Source: Candidatus Heimdallarchaeota archaeon (GTDB lineage Archaea > Asgardarchaeota > Heimdallarchaeia > Heimdallarchaeales > Heimdallarchaeaceae). From it: a stretch of DNA of 7,607 nucleotides. The translations under genes were made by a program, and so were the position numbers. Below the pieces are notes generated by a model. That model saw nothing but the letters and a program-made list of their open reading frames with translations. It did no database searches and was not told the DNA's origin. Where the stretch lies: NCBI GenBank assembly GCA_030668875.1, contig DAOVER010000090.1, forward strand, positions 1 to 7,607, given 5' to 3'. Shown here one piece after another: positions 1 through 7,607 of this stretch (its first letter is position 1; every line of letters starts with the position of its first letter).

Positions 1-6
1 ATTTCA

Positions 7-40
7 TTGCGAAAAAAGAGGGGAGAGGAGAAGAAAAGTA
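7..40 (-). terminator. Possible minus-strand pyrimidine-rich terminator tract downstream of X1
   Basis: Plus strand reads TTGCGAAAAA...AGAAAAGTA and is purine-only from 11 to 38. It lies ~200 nt past the X1 stop and resembles 2155-2192 behind the S8 gene. Confidence 0.35.
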
Positions 41-242
41 TAGCAAAAGACGACTATTTTGATAATATCACCAGAAGTGTGATAAATCTAGGAGAAAAAT
101 GTCTTGATCTTATTGAACATTAGTCATCAGTAATTAAGTGATTACTAAATATCCTAATAGATTATAGAATTGCTTCAAATTAGCATAAAACAGGTCTATT
201 TAAAACAAATTTCGATTTAGTGAGTTGCATGCTCTTTAGGGA

Positions 243-1682
243 TTAAATAATTATACTGTTATACTCTCTTTTGACAAGAATAATTCGTAGGTTTATAAGG
301 AAGGAGAATAAAGTGTCAGAATGTTCCTTAGCATAACAGTGTATGAAGTCAGGAGAGCGAGAAAAAGAACCAGAATCAAACATCTGATCTAACTCTGAAA
401 AGGTTATCCTATTGTAGAAAACTTGCCAAGGTTCGTTTCCATAGTATCTGTTCCATACATAATGAAAATATTTTTCACCTTTTTCGCCATGAGCATATGC
501 TTCAGAAAAATTAGGCGTGGTAGTTAATCGCACTTCTTGAAAAACTGTGCCATTATATTTCCCTAAGAAGAGGTCTGTATGGGAATCCAGAAGAGAGGGA
601 AAGCGAGAGTAGATGAAAAGATAACTTTCTTTATCTAATTCAAATATAGATTCCTCAATAAAAAACCATTGACCTGGAAAAGTAGTAATCTCTTTAGTGA
701 CAGAATAGGTTGAATTAAGAAAGGTTGTAACAAAAAGCCTACTAATATTATTAACCCTACCGCTTTCATAATGAAATACATCAAATCCCTCATTTCTTGG
801 AATTATAGCAATTGGGAACCTGGGAGGATAGCACTCTCCCAATATATACAGTCGCCAACCTTCAACAGGCCAACAAATTGCGAGATAAGTATAGCTTTGT
901 ACACTATCGATTCTTCTTTCCCAAAGAAGAGCAATAGTTGAATTCATGATTTTAAAATCTCCAGGAGCTTGTACATCGTGATCAGTTATTTCTGGAAAAA
1001 TCTCATGCATGAAAGTAGCTTGTTTAGAACTGGAATTGTATATAACAGGTGTATTAACCTTAGGAGTGGTACCATCATCAATATATGGAGGTTGATAGAT
1101 AAAAGCAATTACTATATCACCAGTTCCTGAAAAAAACCAATTTAGCAGAGCACTTCGAGCTAATGTACTAATGTTAAGAGGTAAATAATCAAAATCTGGA
1201 TGATCTTCCCAAGAGTTATTGGTTATTTTTAGAATTTCTCCTAATTGAAAATCGAAACCACTGTATGCATAGATGTAAATAATGGGGCATTTTTCAGAGT
1301 CCAAAGCTATTCGAACCTGGTAGAAATCACCTGCAATTCCCCACTCAAATCTAGGTAAACCATAGAACGAATCATTGTTAAAATTTAAAATTCCATAAAT
1401 AAGATTGTCATTTACAACTACATCTCCATATTTTGAAGAATTCGTTGAGCAGAAATGAATTATATCATCACTTTCTAAGATTATGTCAGAAACTGAACCA
1501 TTCCATAGTGGATTAGGATAAATACGATTGATAAGAGCATCATAAAAACCATTGGTGTTGTTTATATGATTGTTGTTGTTATTTTGTGGAGGTGGTTGAA
1601 AATAGTAGTGCAAAGAGACAGCTATAACACTAAGACTCACAACTATACAGCTAGTAATGATGATCTTCCATCTCTTTCGCAT
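243..1682 (-). CDS. Family-X protein 1 (X1): N-terminally membrane-anchored, probably extracellular and glycosylated, beta-rich (possible beta-propeller) protein of unknown function, 479 aa
   Basis: ATG with AGGTGA 5 nt upstream and a TAA stop. Basic N-terminus plus hydrophobic helix (RKRWK-IIITSCIVVSLSVIAVSL) and many N-x-S/T sequons. Colinear similarity to 4145-5593 (YPNxLWN, IHFC, TPVIYN, FPEI, PGDFK, PIAIIP, YESGxxNNISRL, TDLxLGKY). The fold call is an inference. Confidence 0.85.
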   Translation of the reverse strand: MRKRWKIIITSCIVVSLSVIAVSLHYYFQPPPQNNNNNHINNTNGFYDALINRIYPNPLWNGSVSDIILESDDIIHFCSTNSSKYGDVVVNDNLIYGILNFNNDSFYGLPRFEWGIAGDFYQVRIALDSEKCPIIYIYAYSGFDFQLGEILKITNNSWEDHPDFDYLPLNISTLARSALLNWFFSGTGDIVIAFIYQPPYIDDGTTPKVNTPVIYNSSSKQATFMHEIFPEITDHDVQAPGDFKIMNSTIALLWERRIDSVQSYTYLAICWPVEGWRLYILGECYPPRFPIAIIPRNEGFDVFHYESGRVNNISRLFVTTFLNSTYSVTKEITTFPGQWFFIEESIFELDKESYLFIYSRFPSLLDSHTDLFLGKYNGTVFQEVRLTTTPNFSEAYAHGEKGEKYFHYVWNRYYGNEPWQVFYNRITFSELDQMFDSGSFSRSPDFIHCYAKEHSDTLFSFLINLRIILVKREYNSIII

Positions 1683-1686
1683 TCAG

Positions 1687-1716
1687 TCACCTATATTATT
1701 ATATTTGTTTAAATAC
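1687..1716 (-). promoter_or_regulatory. Putative TATA box and Shine-Dalgarno motif of X1
   Basis: Minus strand: GTATTTAAAC (1716-1707), then AGGTGA (1692-1687), CTGA and the ATG. Confidence 0.45.
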
Positions 1717-1819
1717 ATTAAAGTATTTTGAGTCTTAAATTGAACTAAGTTAAATCTTGTTATTTCACTCATTTAATATCTACATTTAGCTGTTATTCAG
1801 ATTTCAACCCTCTAGTCTT

Positions 1820-1885
1820 TTAGGAAAGACCTGCAATATATTCAAGCATATCGTATACGTCAAGAGAACCGTATCCAACTCTATA
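1820..1885 (-). pseudogene. 3'-terminal fragment of a second S8 peptidase gene (S8')
   Basis: Translates YRVGYGSLDVYDMLEYIAGLS*, versus YRVGYGSLDVYDMLEYVNNLS* at 2275->2210. Identity is 18/21 aa and 52/66 nt, and both end in TAA. Confidence 0.92.
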
Positions 1886-1886
1886 G

Positions 1887-1893
1887 GTTAACA
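1887..1893 (-). other. Fusion junction TGTTAAC, identical to the first 7 nt of the IS481 termini in this window
   Basis: Lies where family-X similarity ends (GTA GAA AAT, 1902-1894) and S8 similarity begins (TAT AGA, 1885). Interpretation as an IS footprint is inference. Confidence 0.45.
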
Positions 1894-2059
1894 ATTTTCT
1901 ACAGTCATATCAGATATGATACTAGTATCCTATAATGAATTAGGATAAAGGTATAAATCGCCATCAGTTTTTCTTCTTAAAAGAGATAATGGTAAAACTA
2001 CTGCAATCACTAGTACAACTACTCTCACAATCGTAGTTCTTTCTAACTCCTTTTTGCAT
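1894..2059 (-). pseudogene. 5' fragment of a third family-X gene (X3)
   Basis: MQKGVR, +1 frameshift, then RTTIVRVVVLVIAVVLPLSLLRRKTDGDLYLYPNSL*DTSIISDMTVEN. It matches X2 YLYPNALWNASIQSDMYVEN at 14/20 positions. TAG at 1932-1930 replaces the conserved Trp. Confidence 0.9.
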
Positions 2060-2089
2060 TCATCCACCTTGACTTAATTATATATTTTT
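2060..2089 (-). promoter_or_regulatory. Relic promoter and ribosome-binding site of X3
   Basis: AAAAATATATAA is identical to the 12-mer upstream of X2 (4102-4113). AGGTGGATGAATG resembles AGGTGACTGAATG at the X1 start. Confidence 0.5.
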
Positions 2090-2160
2090 AATATTTGAGA
2101 GTTTGTATAATAATTTCCTATCTATTTGAAGCGAATTTGTTGGTGCACTTGAATTTGCGA

Positions 2161-2203
2161 AAAACAAAGAAAAAAGAAAAAAGAGAAAAGTATTTCTTTT
2201 CTC
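2161..2203 (-). terminator. Intrinsic terminator of the S8 gene
   Basis: Minus strand: 8-bp stem GAGAAAAG-aaata-CTTTTCTC (2203-2183) immediately followed by a long T-rich tract, starting 6 nt after the stop codon. Confidence 0.75.
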
Positions 2204-2209
2204 ATTTTA

Positions 2210-3484
2210 TTACGAAAGATTGTTAACATATTCTAGCATATCATATACATCAAGTGATCCATAACCAACTCTATATGAATAAAATGTCGTATATTGCCCC
2301 AAATTACCAACTATAGGTTCGCCAACCTTGTTCCAAATTAATTTGTCTGGATCATTTCTTCCATTAGGATCGTTTTCACAAGAATATTTTATACATGCAA
2401 AGAAATCAAATTTTGTTAGCGGACTGCTAGGGGTATTTCTATATTTTATTCTTGAAGTCAAATATGCGGCTGCAGCAACTTGAGGTACTGCGTAACTTGT
2501 ACCAGTATCTTCATAGAACTCTAAATATCCATTATTGTCAGAATCACACATAAGATCAATTTCAAATCCTGGAGTCGCTAGATTAACTGTTGCGTGGGAA
2601 AAACCTTGGCCTTGCAGATAACGACTACCTACATATAGTCCACCAGTTGTTTCTGAGATACATGTTGACATCCTATCAATTTTGTGTGAAGATGTGTGAG
2701 CATCATAAGAGTATATGCCACCTACCCCAAATACATCACTATCCCCTGCTGGATAAGCTAATAAGTTTTCTAATTGATGTGCACCTTCAGGACTGTTTCG
2801 TGTCTCACTATCTGCATTTCCAGATATTGAAACAAGAATACATTTTTGTTGATTTACTAGAACATCAATTTCTTCTGACCAGTGATTTGTGTTACCATCA
2901 AATGACATTGAAATTACTTTGTATTTTCCAGAGGAATGTTGATTATTCCAATTGATAATTCTTTGTAGCTGTTGTTTAATAATATTTGAATCAGGAGCAC
3001 CATATTGAGTTCCAATAAACATAGTAATGCTGATTTCAATGTTTCCATAGCTTTCAAGCAATTGAATCATCAAACTTGTAATCATTGTTCCATGATGATA
3101 ATTATAATTTCTATCTATAGCATTATTTCTGTTCCTATAAGCCCCGTTATAATCAACAAGCATTAAATTTACCCAATCTCCATATTCGTTATAAAAATGT
3201 GTCCAAGTTGTTTTATCTAATCCTGAATCTATAATTGCTATTCTCTCTGCATTCAGGTTATATCTTAGTTTTGAATTGTGTTTTTGAATTGCTTTATCTA
3301 TATTGATCCAATTAACTACTTCATCTGGATCTCCTTCACCATCACTTGGTATACGTGTTGAACCTGCATACTGAATTTCATCTTCTGAATATCCATGGAT
3401 TCCTATAGGGCTAATGTCTAAGATTGTCATACTTCCATAAATCATCAGAACTAATACAATAGTTATTGTTTTATTTCTCTTCAT
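2210..3484 (-). CDS. Secreted or membrane-anchored S8 family (subtilisin-like) serine peptidase, 424 aa
   Basis: Catalytic motifs IAIIDSG (D86), HHGTMITS (H131) and GTSYAVPQVAAAA (S330); oxyanion SGN (N223); YPA and ATPG motifs. N-terminal basic plus hydrophobic signal segment; AAGGAGA upstream. Confidence 0.93.
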   Translation of the reverse strand: MKRNKTITIVLVLMIYGSMTILDISPIGIHGYSEDEIQYAGSTRIPSDGEGDPDEVVNWINIDKAIQKHNSKLRYNLNAERIAIIDSGLDKTTWTHFYNEYGDWVNLMLVDYNGAYRNRNNAIDRNYNYHHGTMITSLMIQLLESYGNIEISITMFIGTQYGAPDSNIIKQQLQRIINWNNQHSSGKYKVISMSFDGNTNHWSEEIDVLVNQQKCILVSISGNADSETRNSPEGAHQLENLLAYPAGDSDVFGVGGIYSYDAHTSSHKIDRMSTCISETTGGLYVGSRYLQGQGFSHATVNLATPGFEIDLMCDSDNNGYLEFYEDTGTSYAVPQVAAAAYLTSRIKYRNTPSSPLTKFDFFACIKYSCENDPNGRNDPDKLIWNKVGEPIVGNLGQYTTFYSYRVGYGSLDVYDMLEYVNNLS

Positions 3485-3490
3485 AATTCA

Positions 3491-3554
3491 TCTCCTTCTC
3501 TTTTGATTCACTGAAATTGTGAATCTAAAATATTAGGTTTTTTAAATATTTAAA
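3491..3554 (-). promoter_or_regulatory. S8 upstream region: SD motif, 7-bp inverted repeat and palindromic TATA-like element
   Basis: AAGGAGA (3497-3491); GATTCAC-N7-GTGAATC (3505-3525); perfect 14-bp palindrome TTTAAATATTTAAA (3541-3554). Confidence 0.45.
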
Positions 3555-3561
3555 CTTTACT

Positions 3562-4076
3562 TGACAACTTGATATTAAAGATTCTCTCTGGGTGGAAGAG
3601 CAGAATCAACATCTCTGTCTCTTAACCATTCTTGATGACTATTCCCGCTTCCTCTTGGAGAGTAGACTCTACCCCCATCCTATCACCCAGCAAGAGATCT
3701 TGACGAGGTTACACCACTGCTTACAGTTTTATAGTCGTCCCAAGCAAGTTCCAACCGATAATGGGGCACAGTTCCACTCTATGCAGAGAGGAACAAGTAC
3801 CTTCACCCGTGTGCTCGCTCAAAAGGAGTGAAACATATCCGCAACCGTGTCTTCCATCCTGAGACTTGTGGGAAAGTAGAGTGTCAGCATGGGACTACCG
3901 TCAGAGAGCTGAAGAGGTTAAGGTTAAAGTATTGCAACACTGACCTCCGACGCTATAAGGACTACTATAACTCCTTCCGCCCTCATCAAGGAATAGGTCT
4001 GCAAACCCCAGGTGAAAGATTTATGAACCACTCACCAAAAGATACCTTCCCCAAAAGTGTAACCGATCTTAGTTGA
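3562..4076 (+). pseudogene. IS481-family transposase catalytic-core pseudogene
   Basis: *QLDIKDSLWVEEQ...DDYSRF...TDNGAQF...(net -1 frameshift near 3811-3825)...HPETCGKVE...YYNSFRPHQGIG..TP. TGA at 3562-3564 sits at the Trp of the LWQxD motif. Confidence 0.9.
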
Positions 4077-4083
4077 GTTAACA
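4055..4083 (+). repeat. Right terminal inverted repeat of IS-a
   Basis: Reverse complement TGTTAACTCAACTAAGATCGGTTACACTT matches the IS-b right end (5672-5700) at 25/29 positions. Confidence 0.85.
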
Positions 4084-4097
4084 AAACTGTAGATTGC

Positions 4098-4144
4098 AGA
4101 AAAAAATATATAAATGTATTGAGAGATTATTATTGAGTGAGGTA
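4098..4144 (+). promoter_or_regulatory. Archaeal-type BRE/TATA promoter and SD-like motif of X2
   Basis: A purine run AGAAAAAAA precedes TATATAAA (4107-4114), 30 nt before the ATG at 4145. GAGGT lies just upstream of the ATG. Confidence 0.6.
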
Positions 4145-5593
4145 ATGCAGAAGAATCTGAGAATGGCTATCGCAATTATGATTATGATAGGTATAAGTCT
4201 TGCGATTGCTTTGCCAATATATTACCTAGTTATAGTACAACCAGAAAAACCATTTACTGATAAATATCTATATCCCAATGCATTATGGAATGCAAGTATT
4301 CAATCTGATATGTATGTAGAAAATGATGACAAGATTCATTTCTGTTTCTCTAACACTATAACTGATTTCGGAGACGACATAGACTTGATCTATACCAGAT
4401 TAAATCTCAAGGAAGACACCATAGCTTTCATTCCAAGATACAATTCAATAATGTTAGTTACTTTTCTAGATATAAGAATAGGATTAGACCCACAAGACAA
4501 TCCTTTCATTTATAGTTATACAAGGGATGGATTTGGATTCTATATGGGGGAGGTTTTAACTGTAATTAATAATACCTGGGAGGAATATCCAGTTCTAGTA
4601 AATGTTCCCTATAATTGTAGTTCAGGGGTAAGAGAATACGTCTATAACTGGCAATTTTTGGATTCCGGTGATGTTATGTTAGCATTCATCTCCCGACAAC
4701 TATTCCAAGTAAATGGAAGTACCACCCTAGTTCAAACACCAGTTATTTACAATGGCACAGAAAACAATGGAATATTCATGCATACTGTTTTTCCTGAAAT
4801 CGTTGAGGATTTTTCGGTATCTCCTGGGGATTTCAAAGTTGTGAATTCTACGATAGCTTTGTTATGGGGGAACTATATAAATGAAATGAATATGCACCCT
4901 TATTTAGCTATAAATTGGCCGGAAAACGGTTGGGAGCTTTATAAATTGGGAATTGGTAATACTCTCCAATATCCTATTGCGATAATCCCTTCTGATAATA
5001 CATTTAATGTGTTTTATTATGAAAGTGGGCATTCAAATAATATCAGTCGACTTTATCAAACACGAGTTTTCAACTCTACTTACTCTACTACTCAAGAGAT
5101 TGCAAGTTTTTACGGTAACCTAATTTTTCATGATGATGCTATTTGCATTCTTAAAGATAATATTTTCCTTTTTGTGTATTCAAGAAGAACCTTTCTAAAT
5201 TATAATACTCAAACTGACCTCTACTTGGGAAAATATGATGGAGAGAAATTTGAGGAAATTAGATTGACACATACATTGAATCACTCTGAATTTTATGCTC
5301 ACTGTGATATAAGTGAGAACTATTTCCATTATGCGTGGTCTAGTTTCAATGATGAAGCTAAAACTGATCTCACTTGGGGACCTAGTTCGATTTACTACAA
5401 TCGTATTCCAATATCTGAAATAGATTCTTTTATTATTAACGGATCTAGTCTTCGTTTAACTCCTGATTTGAATTCTTTATTTCAGAAGAAATACAGCACC
5501 ATTTCAATCTCTTTAATTGTATTGGTTCTCTCTACTAAGAACTCAGAAAAAATCTCCTTGAATTCCTATAATACAAAAACAAGCAGTGAATAA
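4145..5593 (+). CDS. Family-X protein 2 (X2), paralogue of X1, 482 aa from the likely true start
   Basis: The ATG at 4145 (MQKNLR + hydrophobic helix) aligns with the X1 and X3 starts and lies downstream of the TATA box. The ORF-track TTG start at 4094 is upstream of that TATA box. Motifs and sequons are shared with X1; TAA stop. Confidence 0.85.
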   Translation: MQKNLRMAIAIMIMIGISLAIALPIYYLVIVQPEKPFTDKYLYPNALWNASIQSDMYVENDDKIHFCFSNTITDFGDDIDLIYTRLNLKEDTIAFIPRYNSIMLVTFLDIRIGLDPQDNPFIYSYTRDGFGFYMGEVLTVINNTWEEYPVLVNVPYNCSSGVREYVYNWQFLDSGDVMLAFISRQLFQVNGSTTLVQTPVIYNGTENNGIFMHTVFPEIVEDFSVSPGDFKVVNSTIALLWGNYINEMNMHPYLAINWPENGWELYKLGIGNTLQYPIAIIPSDNTFNVFYYESGHSNNISRLYQTRVFNSTYSTTQEIASFYGNLIFHDDAICILKDNIFLFVYSRRTFLNYNTQTDLYLGKYDGEKFEEIRLTHTLNHSEFYAHCDISENYFHYAWSSFNDEAKTDLTWGPSSIYYNRIPISEIDSFIINGSSLRLTPDLNSLFQKKYSTISISLIVLVLSTKNSEKISLNSYNTKTSSE

Positions 5594-5633: not shown

Positions 5634-5657
5634 ACACAATTATTAATATAATTGTGT
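5634..5657. terminator. Perfect hairpin downstream of X2 (possible terminator or IS target structure)
   Basis: ACACAATTAT-TAAT-ATAATTGTGT: 10-bp stem, 4-nt loop, 40 nt after the X2 stop. No poly-T tail follows. Confidence 0.5.
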
Positions 5658-5671
5658 CATGATTCCTGCTC
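5656..5671 (+). repeat. Target-site duplication of IS-b, left copy (16 bp)
   Basis: GTCATGATTCCTGCTC, identical to 6676-6691 and directly abutting TGTTAAC. Confidence 0.95.
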
Positions 5672-5700
5672 TGTTAACTCAACAGACATGGGTTACACTT
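5672..5700 (+). repeat. Terminal inverted repeat (right end of IS-b)
   Basis: TGTTAACTCAACAGACATGGGTTACACTT; contains the transposase TGA stop (5681-5679). Confidence 0.9.
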
Positions 5701-6611
5701 GAGGGCATATGGAGAGTCAAGGGCACATTCATGAATCTTTCACCAGGAGTTTGAAGGTTTATTCCTTGATGAGGGCGGGAGAAGTTATAATAGTCACGAT
5801 AGCGACGGAGGTCAGCGTTACAATAAGCTAATCCTAACCGGTTCACCTCCCTGATGATTGTACCATGGAGACGTTCGACTTTCCCACAAGTTTCGGGATG
5901 ATACACTCTTGCTCTGATATGGTCAATAATATTCGTCTGACACCAACGGGTGAAGGAACTTATTCCTCCTCTTTGCGGGTGGAAGATGGCACCATTATCG
6001 GTTAAAATCTGACGGGGAGTGCCATAGGTTTGCATAGCCTGGTCCAAGAGCTGGAGAATGTCCCAAGTCTTAACAGGACGGGGAAAGAACTTTGCTCCTA
6101 CACAGAACCTTGAGTGGTCATCAATAACACTCACAAGGTGAAGGTGTTGTCCTTGCTCTTCTACCCAGAAAGGTCCCTTGATGTCAATCTGCCAGAGGTC
6201 GTTAGATTCTTCTCGTTCGAACCTTTTCACCCTCTTATAAGCTTTCTTTGTTGTTCTTCACTTCTCCTCCCCCTCTTGTTGGAGCGTCTTCTACACTGTC
6301 GTGTGAGAAAGGTTTATCCCTTCGAGTGTTAGGAGATAGGCTATCTTAATAATATTGAAGCCATAAGCTCTCCTGAGAGCGAGAATACGGCTTTTATTCT
6401 CTTCTGTCACTTTCCTCCTAATGTTCTTGGGTCGTGAGGACCTTTCTTTGTACCATTCTCCTGCGGGGTTCTCATTATGCCTTCTCATCCACTTATGGAT
6501 GAATTTCCTGCTGACCATATACGCTTTAGCTAGTTGGGTAACTTTCGACCCATTCAAAGCTTTTTTAACCACAATTTTTCTAAGTTTTACCAGGTTACGG
6601 TTGGGATTCAT
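5679..6611 (-). pseudogene. IS481-family transposase, one 310-codon frame interrupted by TAG (6293-6291) and TGA (6260-6258)
   Basis: The ORF-track pieces 6611->6291 and 6230->5679 are in the same frame (offset 381 nt). The linker reads HTTV*KTLQQEGEEK*RTTKKAYKRVKRFE. N-terminal HTH (VTQLAKAYMVSRKFIHKW); DDE residues in WQID, TDNG and GKVER. Confidence 0.88.
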
Positions 6612-6646
6612 GTTTGATCACATACCCTCCGTAACCCAATATTTTA

Positions 6647-6675
6647 AACTGTTACCAAGGTGGGTTTAGTTAACA
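6647..6675 (-). repeat. Terminal inverted repeat (left end of IS-b)
   Basis: Minus strand TGTTAACTAAACCCACCTTGGTAACAGTT; 22/29 match to the right end. Confidence 0.88.
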
Positions 6676-6691
6676 GTCATGATTCCTGCTC
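6676..6691 (+). repeat. Target-site duplication of IS-b, right copy (16 bp)
   Basis: GTCATGATTCCTGCTC directly after ...GTTAACA. Confidence 0.95.
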
Positions 6692-6999: not shown

Positions 7000-7607
7000 T
7001 TATTCAAGTGTTGTTAATTCATGCTCTGCTTTTAGCGCTTCCTCAAAATGTAATGCAATATCTCTAAAGTGTAAATTTCTTGTCAAGGAGCTGTAAGCTA
7101 ACAATCCAATTTGTGATTGCTTCACATATTCCTTCAGCAATTTTTTTGGTACACCTATTGTTTCCACTGTATAAGTAAATTCCTTTTTGGGATCATTTCC
7201 TCCTCTAAACATCATCGTTTGAATTATTATCGGCCATAATTTATATTCTAGTATCTCTTTCCATCTATCTTTTACTACTACTATATAGAACCAGTATATT
7301 TCTTGATTTCCCTTCAGAGTAATTGTCTTTTTCTCTCTAAAGATGTTCACTGATAAGTAGTTTAATGAATGAAATATTGTTTCTATCACTTCTGCTTTCT
7401 CTTTTGATATTTTCCCTTTGTTTAAATAATTTCTATATTTTACCAATAGCTCAATCATCTTCTCCTGTAGTCCCTCATTGTCAACACCATCACCTATCAT
7501 ATGTAGTTGATTAAGTAATGTAACGGAAATAATATTCGCGCTTTTGAAATCCTTCTTGTTAATGTGTTCTATTGCTAAAGAAATATTGTTCTCCAATGCT
7601 TCTGACA
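7000..7607 (-). CDS. Hypothetical protein, probably cytoplasmic, with 5' end at or beyond the window edge
   Basis: The frame stays open upstream of the TTG at 7596 (xTG TCA GAA GCA TTG GAG), so a start codon may lie at 7608-7606. TAA stop; no motif recognised. Confidence 0.65.
   Translation of the reverse strand, partial: SEALENNISLAIEHINKKDFKSANIISVTLLNQLHMIGDGVDNEGLQEKMIELLVKYRNYLNKGKISKEKAEVIETIFHSLNYLSVNIFREKKTITLKGNQEIYWFYIVVVKDRWKEILEYKLWPIIIQTMMFRGGNDPKKEFTYTVETIGVPKKLLKEYVKQSQIGLLAYSSLTRNLHFRDIALHFEEALKAEHELTTLE

What the first reader, a model, noticed from the sequence alone, without database searches (positions are those of the whole stretch)
1820..2059. Hidden chimeric relic: the start of a third X gene fused to the end of a second S8 gene
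The 527-bp gap is not simply intergenic. 2059->1894 encodes an X-family N-terminus with its own TATA/SD, one frameshift and a Trp->TAG change. Within 8 nt it switches to an S8 C-terminus ending in TAA. If both genes had normal lengths, roughly 2.5 kb plus an intergenic spacer were deleted. This shows that the locus was a longer tandem array.
Basis: seen in the sequence. Interest (0 to 1): 0.7.

Follow-up and report, generated by a model that had tools for sequence, protein, structure and literature searches.

The report
Deletion scar fusing two gene stumps
The 527-bp "spacer" in this Asgard archaeal contig holds the dead start of a third surface-propeller (X) gene joined to the last 21 codons of a second subtilase gene; it is a real but ordinary deletion scar showing that these paired surface genes are gained and lost quickly.

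Summary
On the minus strand, 2059->1894 is the 5' end of an X-family gene. It keeps the conserved GGTG..ATG start context and has one frameshift near 2038 and TAG (1932-1930) at the family's Trp. A family profile scores it 24.2 bits, against at most 7.3 in 200 shuffles. After 8 orphan bases (TGTTAACC, 1893-1886), 1885->1820 encodes the last 21 codons plus TAA of an S8 peptidase.

This tail is not a copy of the neighbouring S8 gene (dS about 1.2, dN 0.12). It is the orthologue of the S8 gene upstream of the X1 orthologue in a sister genome (G010). Window 1-1885 aligns there at 91.3% and the tail at 60/63, then similarity falls to chance exactly at 1885, while the G010 S8 reading frame continues.

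Four per-run Logan contigs are 100% identical across the junction, so it is not an assembly chimera. One run also holds a variant that continues into S8 beyond 1885.

A short duplication spanning the junction is rejected. An internal deletion (at least about 2.5 kb) between two co-oriented S8->X cassettes is the simplest origin. No intact S8-X-S8-X array was found anywhere, so prior adjacency and deleted size remain inferred. This is ordinary gene decay and of low interest.

The parts
2210..3484 (-). S8a: intact subtilase gene (424 aa), the upstream partner of the X3 stump
   Evidence: Pfam Peptidase_S8, E 1.1e-8. A 76%-identical orthologue lies on L031.
2060..2209 (-). Spacer between S8a and X3. 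It holds a terminator-like hairpin (GAGAAAAG..CTTTTCTC) with a T-run at about 2200-2160, an A/T-rich TATA-like run at 2091-2075, and GGTGG at 2068-2064.
   Evidence: Sequence. The hairpin and homology to L031 run down to 2177 only. The GGTG..ATG context is shared with X1. Promoter function was not tested.
1894..2059 (-). X3 stump: ATG 2059-2057, a frameshift (2-nt gap) near 2038, a membrane helix, then the YLYPNSL-TAG(1932-1930)-DTSIISDMTVEN motif. It is cut off after the Asn codon at 1896-1894.
   Evidence: tblastn, DNA repeat I2, alignment A1, profile score 24.2 bits against 7.3 or less in shuffles, frames. Its closest relatives are in the X2 lineage (79-80% over 61 nt).
1886..1893 (-). Eight orphan junction bases, TGTTAACC. 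The first seven equal the terminal bases of all three insertion-sequence ends in the contig, and also occur in the S8a tail (2221-2228).
   Evidence: The genome-wide frequency of TGTTAAC is 1.5e-4 per bp.
1820..1885 (-). S8b stump: the last 21 codons (YRVGYGSLDVYDMLEYIAGLS) plus TAA (1822-1820)
   Evidence: 60/63 identical to the tail of the G010 S8b frame. Against S8a: 79% nt, 8.5 synonymous and 5.5 non-synonymous differences.
1683..1819 (-). Original S8b-X1 spacer with the X1 start signals
   Evidence: 92% identical and collinear with G010.
243..1682 (-). X1: intact X-family gene, the former downstream partner of S8b
   Evidence: 86% aa identity to the G010 orthologue. omega 0.33.
4145..5593 (+). 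X2: intact paralogue and the closest relative of the X3 stump. Its own upstream S8 was lost at the insertion-sequence fragment end (4083/4084).
   Evidence: L033 shows the order S8 then X2-like. Fold: membrane helix plus beta-propeller.

Best explanation
The stretch is non-functional debris left by a deletion. It does nothing now; what can be explained is how it formed.

The lineage once carried two co-oriented two-gene cassettes on the minus strand, S8a->X3 and S8b->X1. One loss event removed about 425 codons of the 3' part of X3, whatever lay between the cassettes, and the first 400 or so codons of S8b. This is at least 2.5 kb. It left the X3 start signals plus 55 codons, 8 filler bases, and the last 21 codons and stop of S8b.

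X3 carries two further lesions, a frameshift and TGG->TAG, so it has no long open frame.

Shown: both stumps are real homologues; the S8 stump is the orthologue of a longer gene in a sister genome; the breakpoint is at 1885/1886; the junction exists in the sequenced DNA.

Inferred: the two cassettes were direct neighbours; the loss was a single deletion; its size; and that the filler TGTTAAC is a leftover of an insertion-sequence end (about 35-40% likely, since a templated copy from the S8a tail or chance would also explain it).
For: - Both stumps are significant homologues.
- Window 1-1885 equals G010:C43 3934->2064 at 91.3%. Identity by segment: tail 95.2%, spacer 92%, X1 91.3%, and 33% beyond 1885. 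The G010 frame continues as S8 for 140 more codons.
- The tail differs from S8a with dS 1.17 and dN 0.12. The first 16 codons show 7 synonymous and 0 non-synonymous changes. It therefore spent most of its history inside a selected gene.
- S8 immediately upstream of X, in the same direction, is the rule: five loci in four genus genomes, plus L033 and L044.
- The two stumps are co-oriented and ordered as a simple internal deletion predicts.
- No other X or S8a-like piece exists in the 92%-complete genome, so the missing parts were lost rather than moved.
- Four per-run Logan contigs (3226, 2714, 2012 and 1834 nt) are 100% identical across 1841-3674 or more.
- One of those runs also has a contig end that matches up to 1885 and then reads the G010-type S8b sequence, 30/30 bases.
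Against: - No intact array, intact X3 or intact S8b was found in 23 genus genomes, 29 family genomes, the 5.8-billion-protein collection or JGI metagenomes.
- Cassettes in relatives are single and dispersed, not tandem.
- The locus is heavily rearranged. G010 joins its S8b stump to genes that lie mid-contig on C40 in this genome. L031 has S8a followed by a nucleotidyltransferase-like gene with no X. A more complex history is therefore possible.
- All four spanning contigs come from one study, which may be the source of the assembly.
Confidence: 0.7

Rival explanations
1. Rearrangement rather than deletion within an array. S8a-X3 and S8b-X1 were at separate places. An insertion-sequence-driven transposition, inversion or illegitimate recombination placed a block ending inside X3 next to a break inside S8b, and the other products were lost later.
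For: - Two insertion-sequence copies or fragments lie in the same 7.6-kb contig, and at least 15 copies or ends occur in the genome, many at contig ends.
- The filler TGTTAAC equals the insertion-sequence terminus. The expected chance of this in a 12-bp stretch is about 1e-3.
- Neighbouring breakpoints differ between G000, G010 and L031.
- No tandem array is seen in any relative.
Against: - It needs more events than one deletion.
- The co-orientation and the 5'-stump/3'-stump order are exactly what a plain deletion gives.
- No reciprocal products are found in the genome.
- TGTTAAC also occurs 335 bp away in the S8a tail, so the insertion-sequence link is not unique.
Confidence: 0.2
2. A short tandem duplication of about 390-430 bp spanning the S8/X gene boundary of a single S8-X pair. 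This would give the same order of pieces without any large deletion.
For: The topology fits: S8 tail, spacer, X start, S8 tail, spacer, X. The copy spacings are 390 and 427 bp.
Against: - The two S8 tails are saturated at synonymous sites (dS 1.17) yet conserved in protein.
- The two spacers do not align except at the GGTG..ATG site.
- The X stump is closer to the X2 lineage than to X1.
- In G010 the orthologous tail is part of a 161-codon S8 frame with no S8a or X3 upstream.
Confidence: 0.03
3. An assembly or binning chimera: the junction at 1886-1893 was created by the assembler joining similar S8 or X copies.
For: The contig is short (7.6 kb), comes from a metagenome bin, is rich in repeats, and co-occurs with related strains.
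Against: - Four separate per-run Logan assemblies give 100%-identical contigs across the junction, at depths of about 30-43.
- No other X or S8a-like copies exist in the genome that could be mis-joined.
Confidence: 0.02

Closest known systems
Gene remnants (truncated pseudogenes) left by deletions in prokaryotic genomes, including deletions associated with insertion sequences
   Same: The gap holds two gene stumps with extra inactivating lesions (frameshift, stop), a non-homologous junction with a few filler bases, and insertion sequences close by.
   Different: No insertion sequence remains at the junction. At most 7 bases of one remain, and even that link is uncertain.
Fusion genes from unequal crossing-over between tandem paralogues (Lepore-type fusions; from general knowledge)
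   Same: A deletion between neighbouring, co-oriented genes joins the 5' part of one gene to the 3' part of the next.
   Different: Here the two partners are unrelated families (a propeller protein and a subtilase), the join is out of frame with filler bases, and the product is dead. It is illegitimate recombination, not homologous recombination.
Peptidase S8 (subtilase) family, Pfam PF00082
   Same: The 3' stump is homologous to the extreme C-terminus of the family members found next to X genes in this genus.
   Different: Only 21 codons remain. None of the catalytic Asp/His/Ser motifs is present, so it is a fragment and not a peptidase.

Membership tests
X family (membrane-anchored beta-propeller proteins of this Asgard genus; no Pfam entry) | Conserved start context, N-terminal membrane helix, and the motif YxYPNxLWNxSxxSDMxxEND | tested here: met
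   Profile match of 24.2 bits, E 1.3e-5, against 7.3 bits or less in shuffles. Alignment A1. The motif is present up to ..VEN, with TAG in place of Trp.
X family (membrane-anchored beta-propeller proteins of this Asgard genus; no Pfam entry) | Full-length open frame of about 460-500 codons encoding the propeller | tested here: not met
   Only about 55 codons remain, with one frameshift and one stop. It is a fragment of a family member, not a gene.
Peptidase S8 (PF00082) | Catalytic Asp-His-Ser triad within a subtilase domain of about 290 residues | tested here: not met
   Only residues equivalent to 404-424 of S8a are present. The intact S8a next door does match PF00082.
Orthologue of the S8 gene upstream of X1 (S8b) | Collinear, high-identity alignment with the tail, spacer and X1 of a sister genome, with the S8 frame continuing there | tested here: met
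   Window 1-1885 against G010:C43 at 91.3%, tail 60/63. The G010 frame is 161 codons long.
Insertion-sequence end scar (IS481-like element of this contig) | Junction bases identical to the element's terminal inverted repeat beyond chance, with no other source | tested here: inconclusive
   7 of 7 bases match all three insertion-sequence ends. The genome frequency of the heptamer is 1.5e-4 per bp. The same heptamer lies in the S8a tail at 2221-2228. IS481 membership of the element itself was not tested beyond rve and HTH Pfam hits.
Tandem S8-X array | An extant relative carrying two or more S8-X units head to tail | tested here: not met
   None was found among 13 X loci in genus genomes or in L031, L033 and L044. 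Searches for X3 and S8b relatives found nothing closer.

The most novel reading that the evidence does not exclude
The stump may not be inert. It keeps the X3 promoter-like and ribosome-binding signals, and a 45-codon open frame (GTG 2067 to TAG 1930) that encodes a single membrane helix. It could be expressed as a small membrane peptide, or it could drive extra transcription into X1. More broadly, the S8-X cassettes and their stumps could form a fast-turnover surface-variation locus in Heimdall-group archaea, with fragments serving as a recombination reservoir.
Probability: 0.05. Interest if true: 0.5.

Novelty: new member of a known kind. Interest (0 to 1): 0.2.

Why it matters
On its own this is routine genome decay. 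Its value is as a dated footprint. It shows that S8b was the original partner of X1, and that S8b has been cut down independently in two sister genomes while X1 stays under purifying selection. It also shows that S8-then-X surface cassettes in this Asgard genus are duplicated, broken by insertion sequences and deleted on short time scales. This matters for annotation, because the 45-codon open frame called by gene finders is a pseudogene piece. It also matters for anyone testing whether the subtilase is needed to process the propeller protein: G010 and this genome keep X1 without its cognate S8.

Tried and rejected
- A search for an intact X3 using the relic DNA in 30 family genomes found only the X2 orthologue (80% over 61 nt) and low-complexity terminator matches.
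- Searches for an intact S8b found nothing closer than paralogues: a protein search for longer forms and a JGI metagenome scan.
- A metagenome scan with an X-family alignment failed for lack of conserved blocks. A narrower alignment found one distant S8-X-NTase contig.
- An exact-protein look-up of X1 found nothing on record.
- A tree of S8 C-terminal regions was unresolved, with no starred branch, so it was not used.
- No RNA holder was listed among the public runs, so expression could not be examined.
- An Rfam scan of 1600-2300 gave only one hit, SNORD19B-like at 1734-1813 (-), 28 bits against a gathering score of 50, E 0.03. I treat it as chance. No tRNA genes were found.
- A third YPN-like 21-nt match at 150-170 (+) reads KYPNRL*N but has no flanking similarity, and matches of that quality are expected by chance in a window this size.
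- An apparent S8-tail match upstream of the G009 X2 orthologue (E 2.6) lies inside another gene's frame and is noise.

Full report
**Setting.** The window is a complete 7,607-bp contig (C21) of a 99-contig, 3.23-Mb, 33.8% GC metagenome-assembled genome. A same-genus homologue is named 'Asgard group archaeon' by NCBI. Earlier notes of this scan call the genome Heimdall-group; I did not check that.

Gene order:

| Coordinates | Strand | Feature |
|---|---|---|
| 243-1682 | - | X1 |
| 1683-2209 | | 527-bp gap |
| 2210-3484 | - | S8a, Pfam Peptidase_S8 |
| about 3565-4083 | | broken insertion-sequence fragment |
| 4145-5593 | + | X2 |
| 5672-6675 | | 1,004-bp insertion sequence with rve and HTH domains |
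| 7000-7605 | - | unnamed gene |

X proteins have no Pfam family. An AlphaFold model of X2 (pLDDT 76.6) shows an N-terminal membrane helix, a beta-propeller and a C-terminal helix. The best PDB matches are sialidase-like and lectin propellers at modest TM-scores of 0.4-0.57. A protein-language search points the same way, at lead level only.

**The observation.** Read on the minus strand, the gap contains two significant homology blocks.

- *S8 block.* S8a residues 403-424 match 1888->1823 at 18/22, E 3e-6 for a 5-Mb search space. At DNA level 1820-1885 is 79% identical to 2210-2275.
- *X block.* X2 residues 19-77 match 2055->1894, E 1e-3. DNA 1894-1959 is 51/66 identical to X2 4259-4324.
- *Profile test.* A profile built from nine X proteins scores the frame 24.2 bits (E 1.3e-5 at Z=20000). 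Two hundred shuffles of the gap never exceed 7.3 bits.
- *Start context.* The relic reads AGGTGGATGAATGCAAAAAG and X1 reads AGGTGACTGAATGCGAAAG.
- *Lesions.* The ATG frame reads MQKGVRK and then runs into stops. The membrane helix and the family motif YLYPNSL*DTSIISDMTVEN are in another frame. The alignment places a 2-nt gap after 2038, which is one frameshift. TAG (1932-1930) replaces the family's invariant Trp codon.
- *Junction.* X similarity stops at 1894 and S8 similarity starts at 1885. Eight bases, TGTTAACC, belong to neither.

**What the S8 stump is.** It is not a copy of the adjacent S8a tail.

- The two tails differ by 8.5 synonymous and 5.5 non-synonymous changes (dS 1.17, dN 0.12). 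In the first 16 codons there are 7 synonymous and no non-synonymous changes. The stump therefore diverged from S8a while both were under protein-level selection.
- Its origin is shown by a sister genome. Window 1-1885 aligns without rearrangement to G010:C43 3934->2064 at 91.3%.
- Identity by segment is 60/63 for the S8 tail, 92% for the spacer, 91.3% for X1, 89% for the downstream spacer, and 93.5% for the end of a nucleotidyltransferase-like gene. It drops to 33%, which is chance, immediately beyond 1885.
- In G010 the S8 frame continues upstream for a total of 161 codons and ends YIADLS. The relic ends YIAGLS.

So the stump is the remnant of S8b, the ancestral upstream partner of X1.

S8 directly upstream of X in the same direction is the normal arrangement. 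It occurs at five loci in four genus genomes, on an NCBI MAG contig (L033), and on a distant JGI contig (L044).

**What the X stump is.** It is closest to the X2 lineage: 80% to the G016 X2 orthologue, 79% to X2 and 76% to the G009 orthologue over 61-66 nt. X1 matches only over 23 nt. It cannot be X2's own start, because X2 is intact. No closer relative, intact or not, was found in 30 family genomes.

It lies 150 bp downstream of S8a, after a terminator-like hairpin and T-run that S8a shares with its 76%-identical orthologue on L031. Homology to L031 ends at 2177, and L031 has no X there. X3 is therefore best read as the former partner of S8a.

**Is the junction real?** Yes.

- Logan's separate assemblies of four sequencing runs each give a contig 100% identical to the window. 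They cover 854-4079, 1004-3717, 1666-3677 and 1841-3674, at depths of about 30-43.
- These runs belong to one study and may be the source of the bin, so they exclude an assembler or co-assembly chimera but are not an independent population.
- One of these runs also contains a contig end that follows the window up to 1885 and then reads 30 bases identical to the G010 S8b sequence. An undeleted form, or a sister lineage carrying it, therefore co-occurs.
- A run from another study shows relatives that diverge at 1855 and 1801.

**How it arose.** Four models were weighed.

- *Short tandem duplication (about 400 bp) across an S8/X boundary.* This would give the same order of pieces. It is rejected because the tails are saturated at synonymous sites, the two spacers align only at the ribosome-binding site, the X stump is not X1-like, and G010 has the longer S8b with no S8a or X3 upstream.
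- *Internal deletion between co-oriented S8a->X3 and S8b->X1 cassettes.* This is the simplest remaining model. The stumps have the expected orientation and order. No other X or S8a-like fragment exists elsewhere in the 92%-complete genome, so the missing parts were lost, not relocated.
- *Why the size is only a minimum.* L044 carries S8->X->nucleotidyltransferase, L031 carries S8a->nucleotidyltransferase, and an insertion sequence may have been present.
- *Rearrangement instead of deletion.* I could not find any extant tandem array. The region is rearranged in every relative examined: G010 joins its S8b stump to genes that sit mid-contig on C40 in this genome. A multi-step history driven by insertion sequences therefore keeps about 20%.

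**The filler.** TGTTAAC is the terminal heptamer of all three insertion-sequence ends in the contig (5672, 6675 reversed, 4083 reversed). It occurs 1.5e-4 times per bp in the genome, so about 1e-3 is expected in a 12-bp junction.

This fits a scar from an element that once sat at the break. One possible route is loss by slippage between the palindromic GTTAAC termini of one or two copies; that is inference. However, the same heptamer lies 335 bp away in the S8a tail (2221-2228), so a templated fill-in or coincidence cannot be excluded. I give the insertion-sequence scar 35-40%.

**Function.** None is expected. The only open frames are a 45-codon piece (GTG 2067 to TAG 1930) and a 31-codon ATG frame. 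No known RNA family or tRNA lies in the gap. No RNA data were available.

**Verdict.** The 'tandem array' and '2.5 kb' statements are reasonable inferences rather than demonstrations. It is an ordinary product of genome decay in a locus rich in insertion sequences and is useful mainly for annotation and for reconstructing the turnover of S8-X cassettes. Interest is low (0.2).

Noticed in passing
window 2210-3484 vs L031:1971-3248: S8a and its 76%-identical orthologue differ more at non-synonymous than at synonymous sites (dN 0.154, dS 0.133, omega 1.16). The Asp/His/Ser motifs (DSGLD, HHGT, GTSYA) are kept in both. This suggests very fast or diversifying protein evolution of this subtilase.
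   Followed up: partly
L013 (G010:C43) 1330-2129; G000:C40 43644-44972: S8b is also truncated in the sister genome, but at a different point (161 C-terminal codons remain open). There it abuts genes that lie mid-contig on C40 in this genome. X1 stays under purifying selection (omega 0.33) in both genomes without an intact cognate S8.
   Followed up: partly
window 3565-4083 and 4084-4387; L033:2167-2469; L031:1798-1887: X2 also once had an S8 upstream. On L033 an S8 gene is followed by an X2-like gene, and homology to the window starts exactly at 4084, the outer end of the broken insertion-sequence fragment. L031 keeps about 90 bp of the same fragment upstream of its S8a, so that insertion predates the split of the two lineages.
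   Followed up: partly
window 5656-6691; L011 (G016:C55) 9044-9059: The 1,004-bp insertion sequence at 5672-6675 is flanked by a perfect 16-bp duplication (GTCATGATTCCTGCTC). G016 has the empty site. The genome holds at least 15 copies or ends of this element, many at contig ends.
   Followed up: yes
L044:93-3602; L031:1971-4185: A nucleotidyltransferase-like gene often follows the cassette. The order is S8->X->NTase on a distant JGI contig and S8a->NTase without X on L031. NTase is convergent with X1 in this window (1-123) and in G010. This may be a three-gene module.
   Followed up: no
window 4145-5593 (X2): The predicted fold is an N-terminal membrane helix, a beta-propeller whose best PDB matches are sialidase-like and lectin propellers (TM 0.4-0.57), and a long C-terminal helix of low confidence.
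   Followed up: partly
window 1734-1813 (-): A weak C/D-box-snoRNA-like Rfam hit (SNORD19B, 28.1 bits against a gathering score of 50, E 0.03) lies in the S8b-X1 spacer. It is probably chance.
   Followed up: no
window 150-170 (+): A 21-nt match to the YPNxLW motif of X1 and the X3 stump reads KYPNRL*N. It has no flanking similarity and is of chance-level quality.
   Followed up: partly
window 1855 and 1801 (run X5 loose ends): In a marine-sediment run from another study, relatives of the X1 upstream region diverge at 1855 and 1801. The 1855 variant continues with S8-like codons (..KLHPSYSY) directly before YDMLEY, which suggests yet another S8b allele or deletion.
   Followed up: no
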